Below, one piece after another: positions 9,629 to 51,090 of a DNA stretch of 64,000 bases (position 1 is its first letter; every line of letters begins with the position of its first letter). The translations under genes and the position numbers were made by a program. Source of the stretch: a virus; IMG/VR virus record IMGVR_UViG_3300025108_000031, positions 4,282 to 68,281 of that record. One strand, given 5' to 3'. The notes below the pieces were generated by a model. The model had not been told where the DNA came from, searched no databases, and was given only the letters and a program-made list of their open reading frames with translations.

Positions 9629-9922
9629 ATGCGCTGTTGCAAAAAATACAAAAAGGGAGGCAATGTAAGCCTCAAGATGGGCAAGCATAAGTCTCGTTCT
9701 GGCGGACTTACTGCCGCTGGTGTAAAGAAGTATAACGCAGAAACAGGTAGCAACCTGAAGACTGCCGTTACTACACCCCCATCTAAGCTCAAGAAAGGAA
9801 GTAAGGCAGCGAAAAGAAGAAAGTCTTTTTGTGCTAGGATGTCTGGCGTGAAAGGACCTATGAAGAAGCCTAATGGTAAACCAACCAGGAAGGCTCTTGC
9901 GTTACGGAAGTGGAACTGTTGA
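9629..9922 (+). CDS. Small basic phage protein (KRRKSFCARM family, DUF6321-like)
   Basis: Start moved to the ATG at 9629; GGLTxxG and RRKSFCARM...LRKWNC motifs. Confidence 0.7.
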   Translation: MRCCKKYKKGGNVSLKMGKHKSRSGGLTAAGVKKYNAETGSNLKTAVTTPPSKLKKGSKAAKRRKSFCARMSGVKGPMKKPNGKPTRKALALRKWNC

Positions 9923-44943: not shown

Positions 44944-45089
44944 TTGGTAGTGTGGCTGACTAGTAGAACGATATCATCTTCTACTTCCTGTTCATTCTCT
45001 TCTAGGCAATCGCCACATATATCGCAGAAGTTGTGTTCTTCCTCAGTCATTTGCTTATCGCAAAACTCGCAGTTATATTCCTCGTTCAT
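44940..45089 (-). CDS. 49 aa acidic zinc-finger-like protein (not in the ORF track)
   Basis: MNEEYNCEFCDKQMTEEEHNFCDICGDCLEE...; ATGA-type overlaps on both sides. Confidence 0.65.
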   Translation of the reverse strand: MNEEYNCEFCDKQMTEEEHNFCDICGDCLEENEQEVEDDIVLLVSHTTK

Positions 45090-45607
45090 AGTGTGTCTGA
45101 TTTAGGGATTCGAAAGAAGTGGATGCACACATCGGTTGTATCAAGCATGGCTTCACCTCGGTAAAAGATATCACCAACAAAGTCAGCCCACTCGTCCATC
45201 GGCATCGACTCAGTAGTTCCATGAATGGCATCGGTAGCTTCCTTGATGCACCCTATGTCTGTGGGTAGGTACTCACCATCGTACATGGCTTCGCAGTCTA
45301 GCTGATTCCACATCAGCCATTCTCGTGTACTGCCGTTAGCAGAATCAGGTTTGTCTGTATCCCATAGAGGGTTGACCTCAACTATTTTGAGTATCTCTTG
45401 TTCACACTCTTCTTCATTCATTGTGATGATGTCCTGTGTGCCGTCTGTATGGGTGATTACCTCTTCGTGCTCACCCTTCATCAGGAGAGCAAGGATTTTA
45501 GCCTTGTGTTCCTTGGCTTGTTCAAGTGTCTTGAAGAACTGAACTGTGGTATCGGAGTAGCCATCGGCTATTCCACATACTCCATGTATGGATGCATATA
45601 ATTTCAT
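45086..45607 (-). CDS. Acidic hypothetical early protein
   Basis: Start at the ATG at 45607, after a promoter and leader motif. Confidence 0.65.
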   Translation of the reverse strand: MKLYASIHGVCGIADGYSDTTVQFFKTLEQAKEHKAKILALLMKGEHEEVITHTDGTQDIITMNEEECEQEILKIVEVNPLWDTDKPDSANGSTREWLMWNQLDCEAMYDGEYLPTDIGCIKEATDAIHGTTESMPMDEWADFVGDIFYRGEAMLDTTDVCIHFFRIPKSDTL

Positions 45608-45643
45608 GTGATTGAGATTTTGAAGTTGGCAACATTGCCGATA

Positions 45644-45675
45644 CAAAGATACGATATTAAAACACCGATGTCAAA
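45644..45675 (-). promoter_or_regulatory. Early promoter TTGAC-N18-TATCTTTG
   Basis: Bacteroidota -33/-7 architecture with the same spacing as the other copies. Confidence 0.8.
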
Positions 45676-45676
45676 T

Positions 45677-45901
45677 TTAATCTGTAACTAACTGAAAATC
45701 AATGTATTTGAATAGCAGCTCGCTTGCTTCTTTTAATTCCTTTCGCAGTTCAGGTGAGTCATTCTCCATGAGCACGGGACAGGTGGACTGAAACTTTAGC
45801 TTGTGTGCTTGGTTGTAAATTTCATCCGTTGAGTGTGCATCTAAGTGATCGAGTATCGCCTGAGGCAATTCATGACCGATGTGTTGTTCGAAGTTTGTCA
45901 T
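45677..45901 (-). CDS. Hypothetical early protein
   Basis: MTNFEQHIG... start at 45901. Confidence 0.55.
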   Translation of the reverse strand: MTNFEQHIGHELPQAILDHLDAHSTDEIYNQAHKLKFQSTCPVLMENDSPELRKELKEASELLFKYIDFQLVTD

Positions 45902-46062
45902 AGTCGTGGTAAAAAGTGTTCGTCGTCTCGTAGCATACCGAACACATCGTGTACGATATCCTGTGCATTGATGAGATTGTTTTCTTGCGCCATCGTTTGG
46001 ATGCGCTCTGCCCAATCAGCTACGGCAGTGAAGGTTTGTTCAGTCATTTTCAGTTGTATCAT
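45898..46062 (-). CDS. 54 aa hypothetical early protein (not in the ORF track)
   Basis: MIQLKMTEQTFTAVADWAERIQ...; fills the gap with overlaps. Confidence 0.55.
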   Translation of the reverse strand: MIQLKMTEQTFTAVADWAERIQTMAQENNLINAQDIVHDVFGMLRDDEHFLPRL

Positions 46063-46375
46063 TGTCTTGGTTTTCTATTCGTCCAATAAACTCGTCGTGG
46101 ATTGTGAAGATGGCGTCCTTGATTTTACCCTTGCCACCCTTGAGTCCGAAGTACTTCTTCACGTCACTTATCTTCCAGTGTCGGTTAGGCTTCATGTCAT
46201 AATCTGCATACAGCCTGATGTCGCGCTTGGTGAGCATGAGATTGTATAGGCATCTCGGTACGTCATTGTTGTTTATGTTCAACATTTTTCGATTTTCGTC
46301 ATGCAACTCCACCCAGAATGGGGCGTTTGCATCTACATTCTTCATGAAGGCTAAGGCTTGCTTGGTTGTCATCAT
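46040..46375 (-). CDS. Hypothetical early protein
   Basis: 111 aa; MKPNRHWKISDVKKYFGLKG. Confidence 0.6.
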   Translation of the reverse strand: MMTTKQALAFMKNVDANAPFWVELHDENRKMLNINNNDVPRCLYNLMLTKRDIRLYADYDMKPNRHWKISDVKKYFGLKGGKGKIKDAIFTIHDEFIGRIENQDNDTTEND

Positions 46376-46542
46376 TGTCCTTTAATTTTTAGGTTAAAAA
46401 TTGTGCCGTCAAAGGCGTTCTCTAGTCGTGTCTTGTTACCGCCATCAGCCTTCATCCATGCTTCGATGAGTGCTGCTTCGAAGCCACCTGCATAGGGCAG
46501 CCTGGCATTGAGCCTGTCGTATTGTTCTTGTGGTCTGTTCAT
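46372..46542 (-). CDS. 56 aa hypothetical early protein (not in the ORF track)
   Basis: MNRPQEQYD...GGFEAALIEAWMKADGGNKTRLENAF; leader motif directly upstream. Confidence 0.65.
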   Translation of the reverse strand: MNRPQEQYDRLNARLPYAGGFEAALIEAWMKADGGNKTRLENAFDGTIFNLKIKGQ

Positions 46543-46560
46543 GTGTTTGAAATTTTGAAT

Positions 46561-46727
46561 TAGTAGCGATAGCGGGAGTCGAACCCACTCTGAACCGTGT
46601 CCGCCCCTCTGCCGAGGTTATCGAAGGCTGTCTTTTGAACGTTTCAGGATAGGTTAAACCCACCAAGACCTTCGAAGCGAATCGTTGCCGATGCCATTCC
46701 CTGTGTTCATGCAGGGTCATCATCGCT
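46561..46727 (-). ncRNA. tRNA-mimic structured RNA (acceptor stem and T-arm with a large inserted domain)
   Basis: 5' AGCGAUG pairs with 3' UAUCGCU followed by A-CUA; T-arm GUGGG-UUCGACU-CCCGC; internal GNRA hairpins. Confidence 0.7.
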
Positions 46728-46730
46728 ATG

Positions 46731-46930
46731 TTTCGGGGAGGGTGTACATCTCAACCTGCACACCCCCACCTACCTTGATTCGTTGTACCCACAAGGTATC
46801 GGGCAACCCTACTTGTAAGTTTGACTACACCTCAGTAAGGTGTTTGGTGTAGCCGAGTGTGTAATGAGCCGTAGACACGCCATATAGCCTACGTTTGCAG
46901 TGGTTGGTTTCGCCTAACTCACACTCATTG
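46731..46930 (-). ncRNA. Structured non-coding RNA region with a possible pseudoknot
   Basis: No ORF; consecutive stems; loop CCUUACU can pair with downstream AGUAGGG. Confidence 0.55.
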
Positions 46931-46937
46931 GGAATCT

Positions 46938-47312
46938 TTATGACAGGAAGTCAGTGACGTTGAGCTGTGCATCCTCGATGCGCAACTCTTGCATTTCGTT
47001 TGCATGGTTTAGCTTCTTAGTAAACCACAGCTTGAACTCCATCATATCCTCACCATGACAACCCCATGAGCCATTCTTGATGATGCTTCTGCGGTGTCCG
47101 TTTTGATCGTACAGGACGAGGAATGCATAGATGTATGGAGCGTTCCTTGCTCCGCCCTCTTCGAGTCGATACTCGATAGCTATCTTTCGATTTCCACCAT
47201 CTATGAAGGTGTTCGTTAGTATGGACTTGTGGTTGTCGGGGTTGGTTCCGATTACTTCCAGTCTGTCCCATGCACCCAGCAAGTGGGTTAGTTTGTTGTG
47301 TGTGCTTTTCAT
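46938..47312 (-). CDS. Hypothetical early protein
   Basis: Start at the ATG at 47312, after a promoter and leader motif. Confidence 0.65.
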   Translation of the reverse strand: MKSTHNKLTHLLGAWDRLEVIGTNPDNHKSILTNTFIDGGNRKIAIEYRLEEGGARNAPYIYAFLVLYDQNGHRRSIIKNGSWGCHGEDMMEFKLWFTKKLNHANEMQELRIEDAQLNVTDFLS

Positions 47313-47347
47313 GTAATTGAGATTTTGATTAGTGCCGATTGGCTTTG

Positions 47348-47378
47348 CAAAGATACAACATTTAAACCCTGTTGTCAA
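47348..47378 (-). promoter_or_regulatory. Early promoter TTGAC-N18-TATCTTTG
   Basis: Consensus match with conserved spacing. Confidence 0.8.
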
Positions 47379-47411
47379 GTTTTTTTTTCTAAGTCTCTGA
47401 CTTACAATGTT

Positions 47412-47594
47412 TTAGAAGGGTAATTCCTCTGCCGTTAGTAGGAACTCGTATCGCGCTTTGTCCAGGTAAGCATAGGCATCTACATCCCTGCCTTGCGCCC
47501 ACACTGCCAGACCTGTCTTTGCGTAGTGTACGCATCGCTCGCTCTTGATGGCTTCACCCTTGCGAATCATAATTTCAAATGTGCTTCGTGTCAT
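47412..47594 (-). CDS. Hypothetical early protein
   Basis: 60 aa ORF. Confidence 0.5.
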   Translation of the reverse strand: MTRSTFEIMIRKGEAIKSERCVHYAKTGLAVWAQGRDVDAYAYLDKARYEFLLTAEELPF

Positions 47595-47850
47595 GATATA
47601 CTAAAATTGATTCGATTTGAGGACTCACTTCATTGAGAAACCATGTAGCCACGCGGCTTTCAGCTTCATCCAGGTCTTCGAGGTATCCGAGTTGGTCAAC
47701 CTCTCCATCATCGCCCACTTCAGGATCAAAATAAGCTGACTCGTAAACAGCCTCATCAAAGGCATCACGCAACTCGTCATCGCTTACAGGCTTGCCTGCC
47801 TCCTTGTATGAGCATAGCATATAGAACTTCTTTTCTTTGTGATTATTCAT
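47575..47850 (-). CDS. Acidic hypothetical early protein
   Basis: 91 aa ORF. Confidence 0.6.
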   Translation of the reverse strand: MNNHKEKKFYMLCSYKEAGKPVSDDELRDAFDEAVYESAYFDPEVGDDGEVDQLGYLEDLDEAESRVATWFLNEVSPQIESILVYHDTKHI

Positions 47851-47960
47851 AATTTCTCGTCTTGGTATCTGTCATGCTGTTCGTCCGCTTGGTCGTAGTA
47901 ATCGCGCTCCTCGCATTCGTCATCTGACGGGTAGTCGTACCCTTCTCTCCATGTACTCAT
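47847..47960 (-). CDS. 37 aa highly acidic peptide (not in the ORF track)
   Basis: MSTWREGYDYPSDDECEERDYYDQADEQHDRYQDEKL; ATGA overlaps at both ends. Confidence 0.6.
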   Translation of the reverse strand: MSTWREGYDYPSDDECEERDYYDQADEQHDRYQDEKL

Positions 47961-48271
47961 TTGATTGAAGTTTCGAAGTTTGGGACTCCCAAGGTGTATC
48001 CTCGTCGAGTGTCATGTAGCATGAGCATGGGCTGCATTTCTACAGGTTCATTGATGCCCCATATATCCTTGTCATCTGTGATGACTCCTTGCTCCTTCAG
48101 GTAGACATATGCTTGCCCTACGATATCGCCTATAGCATAGTCGTATGAGAGCCACTTGGTGACGTTGTTACGTTCGTCCTTGATTCTAACCCTAGCACCT
48201 TTGGTGTTGGTTGGACTGAAAAACTCGATGTGCAAGGCACGGAGTCGGGGTATGTGATTTGTAAGATTCAT
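47957..48271 (-). CDS. Hypothetical early protein
   Basis: PTNTKGARVRI motif; start at the ATG at 48271 downstream of a hammerhead. Confidence 0.65.
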   Translation of the reverse strand: MNLTNHIPRLRALHIEFFSPTNTKGARVRIKDERNNVTKWLSYDYAIGDIVGQAYVYLKEQGVITDDKDIWGINEPVEMQPMLMLHDTRRGYTLGVPNFETSIK

Positions 48272-48290
48272 GTGTTTGAGATTTTGATTT

Positions 48291-48340
48291 GACACAGACG
48301 CTTCGCAGCGTTTCGACCACTCAGGTCTCGTCAGTGTGCC
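48291..48340 (-). ncRNA. Type I hammerhead ribozyme, copy 2
   Basis: GGCACA-CUGACGA-GACC(ugagu)GGUC-GAA-ACGCU(gcga)AGCGU-C^UGUGUC: full core and three stems. Confidence 0.93.
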
Positions 48341-48507
48341 TGACTATTGAGTCTGTGGATTTCATCGAGGAGCCACCACCTCTGCTCGTCAGTGAACGCC
48401 CCGTACGTCTGAAGCTGACGCTGCTCGAAGTACTTTGCTTTTTCCATGTTCTGCTTGAACATGTGGTAGGCAATCTTGGGTAAGTACCCGTTTTCGTATT
48501 TGCTCAT
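48331..48507 (-). CDS. 58 aa early protein flanked by hammerheads
   Basis: MSKYENGYLPKIAYH...NSQAH; leader motif before the ATG. Confidence 0.7.
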   Translation of the reverse strand: MSKYENGYLPKIAYHMFKQNMEKAKYFEQRQLQTYGAFTDEQRWWLLDEIHRLNSQAH

Positions 48508-48525
48508 GTGATTGAGATTTTGATT

Positions 48526-48575
48526 GATACAGACGCTTCTCAGCGTTTCGTCCATGCAGGACTCATCAGTGTACC
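48526..48575 (-). ncRNA. Type I hammerhead ribozyme, copy 1
   Basis: GGUACA-CUGAUGA-GUCC(ugcau)GGAC-GAA-ACGCU(gaga)AGCGU-C^UGUAUC. Confidence 0.93.
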
Positions 48576-48796
48576 TTGGGTGCTTCGTCCCACTCGTCCT
48601 TGGGTATGTCATGCCAGTCTGTCCAGTACATCATTTCATCTTCGAACGCTTCGTCCAGTGTAGCGTAGTCGTAATTCTGACAGATGCGGAGTGCATCCTT
48701 TTCATACTTTACGTAGTAGAATCCAAGACCTTCGAAGTACCAACCCTCGAACATAGGTTCGTTGGTGATTGTGCAGTAGCGGGGTGCTTTTTCCAT
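48566..48796 (-). CDS. Hypothetical early protein
   Basis: MEKAPRYCTITNEPMFEGW...YWTDW; follows a promoter and leader motif. Confidence 0.65.
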   Translation of the reverse strand: MEKAPRYCTITNEPMFEGWYFEGLGFYYVKYEKDALRICQNYDYATLDEAFEDEMMYWTDWHDIPKDEWDEAPKVH

Positions 48797-48833
48797 GTGT
48801 GAGATAATTGAGATTTTGATTTGGAAGACGATG

Positions 48834-48865
48834 CAAATATACAACATTCAAACACCGAAGTCAAA
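48834..48865 (-). promoter_or_regulatory. Early promoter TTGAC-N18-TATATTTG
   Basis: Consensus match with conserved spacing. Confidence 0.8.
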
Positions 48866-48898
48866 TTTATTTTCATTTCCTCAGTGTTTACAGGGGTT

Positions 48899-49498
48899 TC
48901 AGAGCCATCGGTTTCGTATGGTGACCCATATGATAGCCTGCAACTCGTAAGGCTTGTACCCCATGCTCCGTGCTAGCTTGCAGAAGTGCACGCTCAGTCG
49001 GTCGTATTGCAGGGGTGTTACGCTCGTCTGTACTTCCTTGGGTGTCTGCGATGTGGTCACGAAGGCACGAAGCATCCACTTGTCAATCGTAACAACAGAC
49101 TCATCCATCATACCCACATTGAGGGCGAAAGCGTGAGTTTTTCTAGCCTTGCGGAGCATTTCGATATCTCCGCTCAAGATCGCCCACGCCCTGCGTTTGT
49201 TGCTAGTGTATGTGCATACCTTGACAGACTCCATGGATTCACCATTCACGAAGGCTTGGATGAGATTGAATGCATCAATCTTGTTACGCTCCCACTTGTT
49301 GTTAGGTGAGAGTGCGCTGATGACTGCAGCCGCCACGACCTTGGATATGTTGAACGTTACCGATAGGTACTCAGCAAACTCCATGGCTGAAGCATACCAT
49401 GCTTTACCCTCTCGGATTTCGTCCTCCGTCGCACGCCCCGTCCACGATTTAACGTGAGCGGTGACGCGCTTCAGTGGGTATGTGCTTAAGCTATTCAT
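48899..49498 (-). CDS. Conserved phage protein (ALSP..W, KTxAF, VTIDxW, QAxxW family; possibly HhH-glycosylase-like fold)
   Basis: Motif pattern recalled from phage proteins; function uncertain. Confidence 0.55.
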   Translation of the reverse strand: MNSLSTYPLKRVTAHVKSWTGRATEDEIREGKAWYASAMEFAEYLSVTFNISKVVAAAVISALSPNNKWERNKIDAFNLIQAFVNGESMESVKVCTYTSNKRRAWAILSGDIEMLRKARKTHAFALNVGMMDESVVTIDKWMLRAFVTTSQTPKEVQTSVTPLQYDRLSVHFCKLARSMGYKPYELQAIIWVTIRNRWL

Positions 49499-49640
49499 AT
49501 TCCTTAAGGTATTCTTGAAATTCAGCGATTAACTCATTGGCACTTTTATTGTCGTTCAGGTACTCATGCCTGTCACCAGTCCAATGTGCGGCGCGGCGCA
49601 GTAATTCCACGCCTTCAAGGGGGTTATCTTGATTTTTCAT
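49491..49640 (-). CDS. 49 aa hypothetical protein (not in the ORF track)
   Basis: MKNQDNPLEGVELLRRAAHW...; coupled on both sides. Confidence 0.55.
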   Translation of the reverse strand: MKNQDNPLEGVELLRRAAHWTGDRHEYLNDNKSANELIAEFQEYLKEYE

Positions 49641-50329
49641 GCTTCGAAGTTCATTGTGAGCTGCTCAGCTTCTAGAAGCGTAGCTTCTAATTCAGCGTTG
49701 GCGGCTTGGATTTTAGAACGTCGGACGCCTTCCTCAGGTGTCTCACCAGGCAGGAGCTTGAGTGCTAGCTGCTCACGCTTGGCTGCCTTACGCTCCACCA
49801 CAGGCACTTCCATTCGAGGCTCGAAGGGTTGAGCCTCTTTGCCAGTGAGAGCGTGAACAACCTTCGTTTTCTTGACCTTACCAACCTTGTTGGCAGTCGC
49901 AGTCCGTGCTTGTGCTTGCTCAAGCCCATCCTCGCTTGAACGCTTGGGTCGCTTGACAGCCTTCGTTGACTTTGCAGGCTTGGAAGCCTTTACAGGCTTT
50001 TTCTTACGCTTAGGCTGGATTGACATCTGGTAATCCAAACTGAAATTGTAAGGCTTCGTAGGCTCAGGGTCTGGGACGTCATGGGAAAGGATGAGAGCAA
50101 CAAGTTGCTTTTTAGTCATCTTCATGAGTCGCTGCTCGTCGGTCATCGCAGGCTTGGATGCCTTGGTTGCCTTGGGTGCCTCTGTGGGCTTCGCCTTCCG
50201 CTTGGGCTTGGGTGTCTGAGCCGCTCGCTCTGCAGCGTATCGAGCCTTGTTAGCTGCCTTTCGCTCAGCTTTAGTGAACTTGCGCCCCGTCTCAGGGCAG
50301 TGGGTTGGGGTGTATGTCTGCTTTGACAT
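49637..50329 (-). CDS. Lys/Ala/Pro-rich basic protein, first early gene
   Basis: Histone-H1-like KASKPAK low-complexity tracts. Confidence 0.65.
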   Translation of the reverse strand: MSKQTYTPTHCPETGRKFTKAERKAANKARYAAERAAQTPKPKRKAKPTEAPKATKASKPAMTDEQRLMKMTKKQLVALILSHDVPDPEPTKPYNFSLDYQMSIQPKRKKKPVKASKPAKSTKAVKRPKRSSEDGLEQAQARTATANKVGKVKKTKVVHALTGKEAQPFEPRMEVPVVERKAAKREQLALKLLPGETPEEGVRRSKIQAANAELEATLLEAEQLTMNFEA

Positions 50330-50373
50330 GTGATATGGGATTTAGATGAACCAACTTCGGTGTCGATTCGGGG

Positions 50374-50404
50374 CAAAGATATATCATTCAAGGACCTTTG
50401 TCAA
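50374..50404 (-). promoter_or_regulatory. Early promoter TTGAC-N18-TATCTTTG
   Basis: Consensus match with conserved spacing. Confidence 0.8.
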
Positions 50405-50479
50405 GCACTATTTTCGAAATCCTAGCAAATACAGGGGTTTCAGAGGCAAATTTTTTGGTTTTGGCTCAGACATGGGGCT

Positions 50480-50542
50480 GCATCACGACGCATAATGACG
50501 CATCATTAGGGGTCATGTGTGGGTCATATGTGGGTCATGTGT
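50480..50542. repeat. Short tandem repeats (3x about 10 bp GCATcAtGAC-like, then 3x 11 bp GGGTCATRTGT)
   Basis: Seen directly in the divergent non-coding region. Confidence 0.8.
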
Positions 50543-50904
50543 GGCGGTGCGTATTTCATGGATGTGTACCTACGTGAGTATCGGTTCGATTTTTGTGTTT
50601 TTAATTAGGGGGTGATTGTTCGTGTTTCCTCACTGACTAACGTAGTTAGAAATGCTAATACAAAGCTGTATTGCTAACAACAAAAGCTGAAAACGTAGGC
50701 GAAAACTGCACGGGGTATACCCCACGGGGTTTACGCAGGTCGTTTCTGATGTGTGTACGCTACGTGTGTATATATATATAATCCCCGAGATCTGTGTTAC
50801 GCACCTTTTTTTCAGGCATGCTTCACCGAGGCTATTTCATCGAAACACACTTAAAATGCTGTTTATCAATGCCTTGCTGGGTTCAATTAAACTGCTTTAT
50901 AGGC

Positions 50905-50935
50905 TTGACTTTGTAAGAAAAAAGTTGTAACTTAG
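50905..50935 (+). promoter_or_regulatory. Rightward promoter TTGAC-N18-TAACTTAG
   Basis: Same 18-nt spacing; one mismatch to TAnnTTTG. Confidence 0.55.
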
Positions 50936-51090
50936 CCAAACCTTGTTAGCGATAAACCTTCGAAGCTGTTTTATACCTACGAAGCTGTCTTTAGGATTAC
51001 TTATGTAAGTAATAAATCAGTAGCTCCGAAGCGTCATTCAAACTAATGAAGTTGTGAAGGCACAAAAACTGTATTAATTATATTTGCAGT

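What the first reader, a model, noticed from the sequence alone, without database searches (positions are those of the whole stretch)
48291..48575. Two hammerhead ribozymes whose catalytic CUGA is the stop codon of the upstream gene
Seen: on the - strand, 48526-48575 and 48291-48340 both fold as type I hammerheads with the complete CUGANGA/GAAA/GUC core. The copies covary in stem I (U-A vs C-G) and stem II (GUCC/GGAC vs GACC/GGUC), and both keep a GNRA loop (GAGA vs GCGA), which indicates selection on structure. In both, the UGA of the core is the in-frame stop of the preceding gene (...PKVH* at 48566-48568; ...SQAH* at 48331-48333), and the 5' strand of stem I is coding. Established: hammerheads leave a 2',3'-cyclic phosphate and a 5'-OH. 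Inference: a terminating ribosome would cover the core, so cleavage of the early transcript could be coupled to translation of the upstream gene. The downstream mRNA would gain a 5'-OH end and a defined short leader.
Basis: partly seen in the sequence, partly recalled or inferred. Interest (0 to 1): 0.92.

Follow-up and report, generated by a model that had tools for sequence, protein, structure and literature searches.

The report
Phage hammerheads sharing upstream stop codons
Two self-cutting hammerhead RNAs sit between small early genes of a marine phage and use part of their catalytic core as the upstream gene's stop codon; this looks like tight packing of an RNA-cutting cassette, not a proven translation-controlled switch.

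Summary
On the - strand, 48575-48526 and 48340-48291 are complete type I hammerheads. The core, three helices, stop codons 48568-48566 and 48333-48331, and predicted cuts 48532^48531 and 48297^48296 all check.

Both score below Rfam's threshold (22.2 and 21.3 against 34 bits). However, 0 of 15 other phage type I hammerheads passed it either. In 11 distinct relatives, 165 of 165 pair cells are paired, and all three helices show compensatory changes.

The shared stop is not special to this phage. Of 116 phage type I hammerheads surveyed, 20 use the core UGA as the stop and 48 have the stop 1-12 nt before it. Within this hammerhead lineage the stop also lies at -6, -9 or -33. So the overlap follows the upstream gene, not the ribozyme.

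Each hammerhead is followed 24-25 nt later by an AUG, behind the same leader that follows the phage's promoters. Relatives swap promoter, hammerhead and a tRNA-like module in front of the same genes.

Best reading: these are cassette-borne processing sites that give each gene a standard leader. Translation coupling is untested. This scan has noted the same theme on other DNA.

The parts
48526..48575 (-). Hammerhead 1 (type I, 50 nt): stem I GGUACA/UGUAUC, core CUGAUGA, stem II GUCC/GGAC, GAA, stem III A-CGCU/AGCG-U with GAGA loop, C17 at 48532
   Evidence: RF00163 22.2 bits, model positions 1-45 of 45; 78 bits with family model R1
48291..48340 (-). Hammerhead 2 (type I, 50 nt): stem I GGCACA/UGUGUC, core CUGACGA, stem II GACC/GGUC, stem III with GCGA loop, C17 at 48297
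   Evidence: RF00163 21.3 bits; 80 bits
48566..48568 (-). UGA of the hammerhead 1 core, which is also the stop of gene A. It is followed in frame by a second UGA because N7 is U.
48331..48333 (-). UGA of the hammerhead 2 core, which is also the stop of gene B
48531..48532 (-). Predicted cleavage site of hammerhead 1 (3' of C17; cut 48532^48531). Predicted only.
   Evidence: position in the alignment to the hammerhead consensus
48296..48297 (-). Predicted cleavage site of hammerhead 2 (cut 48297^48296). Predicted only.
48566..48796 (-). Gene A, 76 aa (MEKAPRY...PKVH*). No Pfam or PHROG family. Its last two codons (GUA CAC) are the 5' strand of stem I.
48331..48507 (-). Gene B, 58 aa (MSKYENGY...SQAH*). 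No Pfam or PHROG family. Flanked by the two hammerheads.
47957..48271 (-). Gene C, 104 aa, downstream of hammerhead 2. Only a weak match to phrog_3199 (E 3e-4).
48508..48531 (-). 24-nt leader that hammerhead 1 cleavage would leave on gene B. It holds the motif AAUCAAAAUCUCAA (48525-48512).
48272..48296 (-). 25-nt leader that hammerhead 2 cleavage would leave on gene C. It holds the motif AAUCAAAAUCUCAA (48289-48276).
48834..48865 (-). Promoter-like site TTGACT-N17-TATATTTG ahead of gene A and its copy of the leader motif (48821-48808). No other promoter-like site of 10/12 on the - strand lies between here and 47594, and no terminator-like site on the - strand lies in 45000-50500.

Best explanation
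What they are. Both elements are genuine type I hammerhead self-cleaving ribozymes. They sit at the first two gene junctions of a small-gene (probably early) operon of a complete 68-kb marine phage. The promoters (TTGAC-N17-TAnnTTTG) and the leaders without a Shine-Dalgarno sequence suggest a Bacteroidota host. That promoter consensus is recalled, so the host is inferred.

What they do. The operon is transcribed as one RNA from the promoter at 48865-48834. Each ribozyme would cut 35 nt after the stop of the upstream gene and 24-25 nt before the next AUG.
- The upstream fragment keeps its stop codon and ends in the two ribozyme hairpins with a 2',3'-cyclic phosphate.
- The downstream fragment starts with a 5'-OH, 6-7 nt ahead of the phage's standard leader AAUCAAAAUCUCAA-N4-AUG. 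A primary transcript from this phage's promoters has the same leader.
- The ribozyme therefore acts as an insulator and processing site belonging to a mobile 'gene + hammerhead' cassette.

Why the stop is shared. The shared UGA comes from packing the cassette flush against, or into, the end of the preceding ORF. The core UGA ends any ORF that enters the ribozyme in that frame.

Shown: motif, covariation, positions, leader identity, and module swaps between relatives. Inferred: cleavage in vivo, the chemistry of the ends, and the benefit to the phage.
For: Ribozyme identity.
- The core is complete, and N7 is the only core position that varies freely.
- 165 of 165 pair cells are paired in 11 distinct family sequences. 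5 pairs changed on both sides, at least one in each helix, and 0 of 500 shuffles reached the covariation score.
- Two of these sequences (L133, L135) were fetched by protein homology, not by the ribozyme pattern, and they carry the stem III compensation U-A to C-G.

One transcription unit.
- Promoter-like sites of 10/12 on the - strand lie at 50404, 48864, 47594, 47378 and 45674, so none lies between 48864 and 47594.
- There is no terminator-like site on the - strand in 45000-50500.

Standard leader.
- The 14-nt motif occurs 7 times with up to 2 mismatches against 1.07 expected; 0 of 100 shuffles reached 7. Six copies are on the - strand.
- By my reading, each of the six lies 4-12 nt before an ATG. 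Three follow promoter-like sites, two follow the hammerheads, and one follows a tRNA-like module.

Interchangeability in relatives.
- In L131, gene B follows the promoter directly. Gene A and hammerhead 1 are absent, and the junction lies within the leader repeat.
- In L133, the 124-aa gene follows hammerhead 2, whereas in the window it follows the promoter at 47378.
- In L145, gene A is followed by the tRNA-like module instead of hammerhead 1.

Overlap as packing.
- Of 116 unique phage type I hammerheads with an upstream open frame of at least 60 codons, the stop lies at -12..-1 in 48, at the core UGA in 20, beyond it in 15 and further upstream in 33.
- A start codon follows the cut at a median of 25 nt, found in 104 of 124.

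In print.
- Tandem prophage hammerheads cleave about 2-kb polycistronic RNAs in vitro, and a halovirus transcript 5' end maps within 3 nt of a hammerhead cut (passages of PMC3088659).
- Processing of polycistronic transcripts is a suggested role that still needs work (passage of PMC6765202).
Against: - No cleavage data. The only RNA runs that hold the region are assembled contigs of relatives, which cannot show RNA ends.
- Both copies score below Rfam's gathering score.
- Stem I is only 6 bp with open ends, and I tested no tertiary stem I-loop II contact. Activity at cellular Mg2+ is therefore not assured (general knowledge of minimal hammerheads, recalled).
- Folding energies are not exceptional (z -2.03 and -0.88).
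- In a 120-nt context the minimum-energy fold of hammerhead 2 is an alternative that pairs GUCAG with the core CUGAC.
- The uncleaved fold does not sequester the leader, so the gain from cutting is not obvious.
- One family member (L011) has CCGA instead of CUGA.
- The survey is biased.
Confidence: 0.62

Rival explanations
1. Translation-gated ribozyme. The stop codon lies in the core and the 5' strand of stem I is coding. A ribosome finishing gene A or B therefore unfolds the ribozyme, so cutting is tuned by how heavily the upstream gene is translated.
For: - Geometry: a ribosome with UGA in its A site covers stem I's 5' strand, the core and the 5' strand of stem II (established footprint sizes; my inference).
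- Open frames that reach the core end at the UGA more often than one in three: 20 of 35, binomial p 0.003. Without the window's family it is 15 of 29, p 0.03.
- Hammerhead 2 can form an alternative hairpin, GUCAG-GCACA-CUGAC, that holds the stop codon.
- Earlier notes of this scan report similar locking hairpins in other phages (not tested here).
Against: - The overlap is not a property of the ribozyme lineage. The stop is at 0 in 8, at -6 in 1, at -9 in 1 and at -33 in 2 of the 12 aligned family members.
- 33 of 116 surveyed hammerheads have the stop more than 12 nt upstream.
- The alternative hairpin is absent from hammerhead 1. UCAG just upstream of stem I occurs in only 6 of 122, and 4 of those are the window's own family.
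- N7 = U, which would give a tandem UGA-UGA stop, is not significantly enriched among core-stop cases: 15 of 20 against 50 of 96, p 0.08.
- The excess of ends at the UGA is also what selection against encoding protein across the core would give.
Confidence: 0.15
2. Passenger elements. The hammerheads travel with mobile small-gene cassettes and are kept by descent. They may help cassette spread or have little effect on expression, and cleavage has no role for the flanking genes.
For: - Cassettes are reshuffled between relatives. Gene A with hammerhead 1 is present or absent between two copies of the leader repeat.
- The same ribozyme lineage lies behind unrelated genes.
- One copy has a mutated core (L011).
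Against: - Catalytic positions are invariant in 11 of the 12 aligned sequences, while helices change by compensation. This indicates selection on the active fold.
- The position relative to the next start codon is regular: median 25 nt, interquartile range 21-32.
Confidence: 0.1
3. Structural element without cutting. The two hairpins serve as a 3' stabiliser of the upstream message or as a protein-binding site, and the hammerhead likeness is vestigial.
For: - Scores are below Rfam's threshold.
- The design is minimal, with no tertiary contact tested.
- Stable GNRA-capped stem III.
Against: A stabilising hairpin needs neither CUGANGA, nor GAAA, nor a stem I that pairs across the junction. All of these are kept, with N7 the only free core position.
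Confidence: 0.06
4. Excision and circularisation. The two cuts release a 235-nt RNA (48531-48297) carrying leader, gene B and the body of hammerhead 2, with 5'-OH and cyclic-phosphate ends. An RtcB-type ligase or the ribozyme itself could join these into a circular mRNA.
For: - Two same-strand hammerheads flank one small gene.
- The end chemistry fits RtcB substrates (established knowledge, recalled).
Against: - Each stem I covaries with its own 3' strand (U-A in hammerhead 1, C-G in hammerhead 2, also in L007). The hybrid stem of a circle would carry a C-A mismatch.
- The spacing between the two hammerheads is 235 nt in L132 and L142 but 320 nt in L135 and L144.
- Other relatives have only one of the two hammerheads (L131, L133, L143).
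Confidence: 0.04

Closest known systems
Clustered hammerhead ribozymes flanking genes in prophages (Perreault et al. 2011, PMC3088659; passages seen)
   Same: - Several same-strand hammerheads between small phage genes.
- Tandem arrangements shown to cut about 2-kb polycistronic RNAs in vitro.
- One triple arrangement flanks single genes.
   Different: - Here the hammerheads are type I copies in an uncultured marine phage.
- The main text of that paper has no occurrence of 'stop codon' or 'overlap'.
- The shared UGA, the common leader, and the swaps with a promoter or a tRNA-like module are not described in the passages I saw. Its supplements could not be read.
Hammerhead variant of haloviruses HF1/HF2 (discussed in PMC3088659, passage seen)
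   Same: A phage hammerhead ahead of early genes. The mapped 5' end of the major transcript lies within 3 nt of the ribozyme cut, so the ribozyme defines the mRNA 5' end.
   Different: That case is an archaeal virus with one ribozyme ahead of the first ORF. No upstream ORF shares its stop codon.
RiboJ-type synthetic ribozyme insulators (recalled, no call)
   Same: A hammerhead placed ahead of a ribosome-binding region cuts off the variable upstream RNA, so that the gene always has the same short 5' leader.
   Different: RiboJ is engineered, derives from a satellite RNA ribozyme with an added hairpin, and is not fused to a stop codon.
Self-cleaving ribozymes in 5' regions of RNA viruses used for translation initiation (PMC13725137; passages seen)
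   Same: Type I hammerheads with a long helix III sit ahead of ORFs, which links ribozymes with translation of the downstream gene.
   Different: Those are eukaryotic RNA viruses, where the ribozyme fold itself is proposed to recruit translation. [quoted passage not shown]
tRNA punctuation and tRNA-like processing signals
   Same: A structured RNA between genes marks where a long transcript is cut. In this phage group a tRNA-like module occupies the same slot as a hammerhead (L145 against the window).
   Different: The cut there would be made by host RNase P or RNase Z, not by the RNA itself. This was not tested here.

Membership tests
Hammerhead ribozyme, type I (Rfam RF00163) | Conserved catalytic core C3-U4-G5-A6-N7-G8-A9, G12-A13-A14, the A15.1-U16.1 pair, and H17 at the cleavage site | tested here: met
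   Both copies have every position: CUGAUGA or CUGACGA, GAA, A-U and C17. In 12 family sequences only N7 varies freely. One copy has U4C (L011) and one has A17, which is allowed (L135).
Hammerhead ribozyme, type I (Rfam RF00163) | Three helices around the core, with stems II and III closed by loops and stem I open, supported by covariation | tested here: met
   165 of 165 pair cells are paired. 5 of 15 pairs changed on both sides, at least one in each helix. Slid controls pair in 23-43% of cells.
Hammerhead ribozyme, type I (Rfam RF00163) | Score at or above Rfam's gathering score (34 bits) | tested here: not met
   22.2 and 21.3 bits, and neither is listed at gathering. The threshold also misses this subclass in general: 0 of 15 pattern-defined phage type I hammerheads in 15 loci passed any hammerhead family.
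Hammerhead ribozyme, type I (Rfam RF00163) | Mg2+-dependent self-cleavage 3' of position 17 | not testable with these tools
   Only assembled contigs of RNA runs were on hand, and these cannot show RNA ends.
Hammerhead ribozyme, type I (Rfam RF00163) | Tertiary contact between stem I and loop II, which gives activity at cellular Mg2+ | not tested
   I looked by eye only and found no consistent complement of loop II in the flanks. No call was made.
RAGATH-1 hammerhead (Rfam RF03152) | Score at or above the gathering score (56.3 bits), including the extra 5' hairpin | tested here: not met
   25.9 bits (hammerhead 2, with a poor upstream hairpin) and 16.3 bits (hammerhead 1, partial).
Clustered phage/prophage hammerheads (Perreault et al. 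2011) | Two or more same-strand hammerheads flanking genes within one phage transcription unit | tested here: met
   Two copies lie 235 nt apart and flank gene B. One promoter-like site lies upstream, and there is no - strand terminator-like site. The record is a complete virus.
   The stop is at 0 in 8, at -6 in 1, at -9 in 1 and at -33 in 2 of 12 family members. It is conserved only together with the homologous upstream gene.

The most novel reading that the evidence does not exclude
This phage group gives every small early gene the same 5'-proximal leader by three interchangeable devices: a promoter start, a hammerhead cut, or a tRNA-like module cut by host tRNA-processing enzymes. These devices also act as the joints at which gene cassettes are exchanged. 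On top of this, placing the upstream stop inside the ribozyme makes each cut depend on ribosome traffic over the preceding gene, so neighbouring cassettes balance each other's expression.
Probability: 0.15. Interest if true: 0.75.

Novelty: new member of a known kind. Interest (0 to 1): 0.42.

Why it matters
The biological role of the many hammerheads in phage genomes is still described as unresolved (passages of PMC6765202 and PMC13725137).

This locus offers a clear comparative hint. The ribozyme cut would recreate the 5' leader that promoters give to other genes of the same phage, and relatives exchange promoter, ribozyme and tRNA-like module ahead of the same genes. That makes the idea of a 'natural insulator for mobile gene cassettes' directly testable.

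The stop-codon sharing is a common consequence of packing, seen in 20 of 116 surveyed cases. It should not be read as evidence of regulation. It does matter for annotation: Rfam thresholds missed all 17 phage type I copies examined here, and the last codons of such genes are dictated by stem I.

Tried and rejected
RNA evidence. One search found 24 runs. The DNA holders are marine metagenomes. I laid the three runs on record as RNA and one run guessed to be RNA. All are assembled contigs, mostly of relatives. Contigs end at 48566, 46563 and 46862, but these places are borders of repeated or strain-variable modules, where assembly graphs branch. X21 and X22 also belong to one study. I therefore draw nothing from contig ends about RNA ends or cleavage. 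The higher contig depth over 46563-46862 may be a sum over strains.

Alternative 'locking' hairpin. It is present in hammerhead 2 and its close relatives only. There was no general enrichment: 6 of 122, with 4 from the window's own family.

Tandem-stop idea (N7 = U where the core UGA is the stop). 15 of 20 against 50 of 96, p 0.08. Not significant.

Protein function. Genes A and B have no Pfam or PHROG match. Gene C has a weak match to phrog_3199. The 199-aa gene upstream is DUF7178.

Phage records. A megablast of 46000-51000 against GenBank phage records found nothing.

The RNA at 46450-47050. No Rfam match at E up to 10, and no ARAGORN call.

Literature. Five full-text searches for hammerhead plus stop codon, overlap, phage or polycistronic and one for RAGATH found no paper describing a phage hammerhead that shares its core UGA with a stop codon. 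This covers only the held open-access library. Jimenez et al. 2011, Seehafer et al. 2011 and Weinberg et al. 2015 (all recalled) were not seen. Supplements of PMC3088659, which list gene contexts, could not be read.

Tertiary contacts of loop II. Looked for by eye only, with no consistent partner found and no call made.

Full report
**What is there**

The window is bases 4282-68281 of a 68,281-nt IMG/VR virus record rated 100% complete. Runs holding the stretch are marine metagenomes.

On the - strand, 48575-48526 and 48340-48291 each read as a 50-nt type I hammerhead. The parts are a 6-bp open stem I, core CUGAUGA or CUGACGA, a 4-bp stem II with a 5-nt loop, GAA, a stem III made of the A-U pair plus 4 bp closed by GAGA or GCGA, and then C17.

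**Is it more than chance?**

- The core pattern occurs twice against 0.04 expected, and 0 of 100 shuffles had two matches.
- Rfam's type I model aligns both copies end to end, but at 22.2 and 21.3 bits, below its gathering score of 34. They are not reported at gathering.
- That threshold is not informative for this subclass. In 15 other loci, each holding a pattern-defined phage type I hammerhead, none passed any hammerhead family.
- Thermodynamics alone is weak. The hammerhead is the minimum-energy fold of each 50-mer, but z is only -2.03 and -0.88.
- The strong evidence is comparative. I aligned 12 family members, 11 of them distinct. Two of these were found through the neighbouring protein and not through the ribozyme. 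All 165 pair cells are standard pairs, and five pairs changed on both sides, at least one in each helix. Slid controls pair in 23-43% of cells.
- All catalytic positions are invariant except N7.
- A model built from the family finds only these two copies in the window, at 80 and 78 bits; the next hit scores 9 bits. RF00163 finds only these two in the whole record.

**Gene context**

The upstream ORFs look like real genes. Gene A (76 aa) and gene B (58 aa) have homologues in related viral contigs, and differences fall mostly on the third codon position. They have no Pfam or PHROG family.

Promoter-like sites TTGAC(A/T)-N17-TAT(A/C)TT of 10/12 lie on the - strand at 50404, 48864, 47378 and 45674, with a weaker-looking one inside coding sequence at 47594. 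There is no - strand terminator-like site in 45000-50500. Genes A, B and C are therefore most simply read as one transcript from the 48864 promoter.

The later junctions of that operon have abutting or overlapping stops and starts and carry no ribozyme.

**The leader**

The motif AAUCAAAAUCUCAA occurs seven times with up to 2 mismatches against 1.07 expected, and six copies are on the - strand. Reading:
- Each - strand copy ends 4-12 nt before an ATG.
- Three follow promoter-like sites (48808, 47317, 45612).
- Two follow the hammerheads (48512, 48276).
- One follows a tRNA-like module (46547).

A hammerhead cut would leave 24 and 25 nt before the AUG, with 6-7 nt ahead of the motif.

**Relatives swap the upstream device**

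- In L131, the promoter of the window's gene A stands directly ahead of gene B. Gene A plus hammerhead 1 are missing, and the junction lies within the leader repeat.
- In L133, hammerhead 2 is followed by the homologue of the window's 124-aa gene. In the window that gene follows the 47378 promoter.
- In L145, gene A is followed by the roughly 165-nt tRNA-like module instead of hammerhead 1.
- In L143 and L134, other sequence follows the ribozyme.

The units behave as cassettes, and promoter, ribozyme and tRNA-like module are interchangeable ahead of the same leader and genes.

**Is the stop/core overlap special?**

Within the family, the stop is the core UGA in 8 of 12 aligned members, and all 8 lie behind homologues of gene A or gene B. 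The same ribozyme lineage has the stop elsewhere in the other four:
- a TAA inside stem I at -6 (L004);
- a TAA abutting stem I at -9 (L135, behind a longer gene B homologue);
- a stop 33 nt upstream, with a hairpin between (L005, L011).

More distant gene B homologues (L136-L141) have no ribozyme.

For a wider view I collected phage type I hammerheads with a degenerate pattern. With the loci and the window this gave 124 unique copies.
- 6 were too close to a locus end and 2 had no qualifying open frame, leaving 116 evaluated.
- For each I took the last open frame of at least 60 codons ending between -400 and +80 of the core U.
- The stop lies at -12..-1 in 48, exactly at the core UGA in 20, beyond it in 15 and further upstream in 33.
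- Without the window's family, 15 of 109 are at the core.
- Among frames that reach the core, 20 of 35 end at the UGA against one third expected (p 0.003). Without the family it is 15 of 29 (p 0.03).

These figures rest on open-frame length, not on gene calls, and on related sequences, so they are approximate.

The picture is that phage type I hammerheads usually sit flush against or just inside the end of the preceding gene. They rarely let a protein be encoded across the core. The next start follows at a median of 25 nt. Sharing the UGA is one common outcome of that packing.

**Translation coupling**

A ribosome at the UGA must hold stem I's 5' strand, the core and part of stem II in its channel. 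This follows from established footprint size and is my inference. Folding and termination therefore exclude each other at any instant.

That holds equally for the many copies with stops at -12 to -4, and not at all for the 33 of 116 with distant stops. Two further signs of a selected link were weak:
- An alternative hairpin that pairs GUCAG with CUGAC exists in hammerhead 2 but not in hammerhead 1, and is not enriched in the survey.
- A tandem UGA-UGA is not significantly commoner where the core is the stop.

The coupling idea is therefore possible but unsupported.

**Comparison with what is known**

- Clusters of hammerheads flanking genes in prophages, and their cleavage of polycistronic RNA in vitro, were described in 2011. 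The same paper notes a halovirus transcript whose 5' end maps within 3 nt of a hammerhead cut (passages).
- A 2019 review says processing of polycistronic transcripts has been suggested and needs work (passage).
- None of the texts I could search mentions a phage hammerhead sharing its UGA with a stop codon. I could not read supplements or several subscription papers.
- This scan has noted the same theme repeatedly on other DNA: stops built into type II hammerheads, mini-tRNAs swapping with hammerheads, and locking hairpins.

**Verdict**

These are new members of a known kind, clustered phage hammerheads. The stop sharing is real and common, and is best explained by packing of a mobile 'gene + ribozyme' cassette.

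The more interesting point in this locus is that ribozyme cuts, promoter starts and a tRNA-like module all precede the same leader and replace one another in relatives. This supports a leader-standardising, insulating role. Cleavage and its effect on expression remain untested.

Noticed in passing
window 46563-46728 (- strand); also L145:1735-1912, L146, L147, L148, L150: A tRNA-like module of about 165 nt. It has a 7-bp acceptor-like stem, a T arm with a UUCGACU loop, a D-like hairpin and a large branched centre. Five distinct copies have different flanks, and two lie in one contig (L148 and L150). It has no Rfam or ARAGORN match. It is followed by the standard leader in the window and in L147, and it replaces hammerhead 1 behind gene A in L145. 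The consensus fold has 48 pairs, only 2 of them with compensatory change.
   Followed up: partly
window 45612-45625, 46547-46560, 47317-47330, 48276-48289, 48512-48525, 48808-48821 (- strand): A repeated leader motif AATCAAAATCTCAA lies just ahead of six start codons and has no Shine-Dalgarno sequence. In L131 the absence of gene A plus hammerhead 1 maps between two copies of this repeat, so the leader may also serve as the recombination joint for cassette gain and loss.
   Followed up: partly
window 46729-46937 (- strand): An ORF-poor stretch of about 200 nt lies between the 124-aa gene and the tRNA-like module. L147 and L149 lack roughly 46731-46860 of it and join '...ggctcattaca' directly to the module. 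Two RNA-library contig sets show a matching 168-nt skip nearby (46862 to 47031).
   Followed up: no
window 48836-48864, 47350-47378, 45646-45674, 50376-50404 (- strand): Four near-identical promoter-like sites TTGAC(A/T)-N17-TAT(A/C)TTTG combine a -35-like TTGACA with the TAnnTTTG box that I recall as the Bacteroidota -7 element. This suggests a Bacteroidota host. The stricter pattern TTTG-N17-21-TAnnTTTG is not enriched in the whole window (3 matches against 1.37 expected).
   Followed up: partly
L011:3067-3116: A family member with CCGA in place of CUGA in the core (U4C) but otherwise intact helices. It could be an inactive or weakened copy.
   Followed up: no
window 48341-48345 with 48330-48334 (- strand): GUCAG just upstream of hammerhead 2 can pair with the core CUGAC, with stem I's 5' strand as the loop. 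It is part of the minimum-energy fold of the 120-nt context. It is kept in L003, L012 and L133, shortened in L007, and absent in L135 and in hammerhead 1.
   Followed up: partly
L013-L027 (15 loci): None of 15 pattern-defined phage type I hammerheads reaches Rfam's gathering score for any hammerhead family. Routine Rfam annotation therefore misses this long-stem-III phage subclass.
   Followed up: partly
L017:9755-9792 (- strand) beside tRNA 9806-9878: A type I hammerhead lies directly next to an array of seven tRNA genes in a 113-kb viral contig. This is another case of ribozyme and tRNA-type elements side by side.
   Followed up: no
L146:315-400 (- strand): Downstream of the tRNA-like module in L146 lies a second T-arm-like hairpin (CGAGGTTCGAGTCCTCG). 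This hints at arrays of tRNA-like modules.
   Followed up: no
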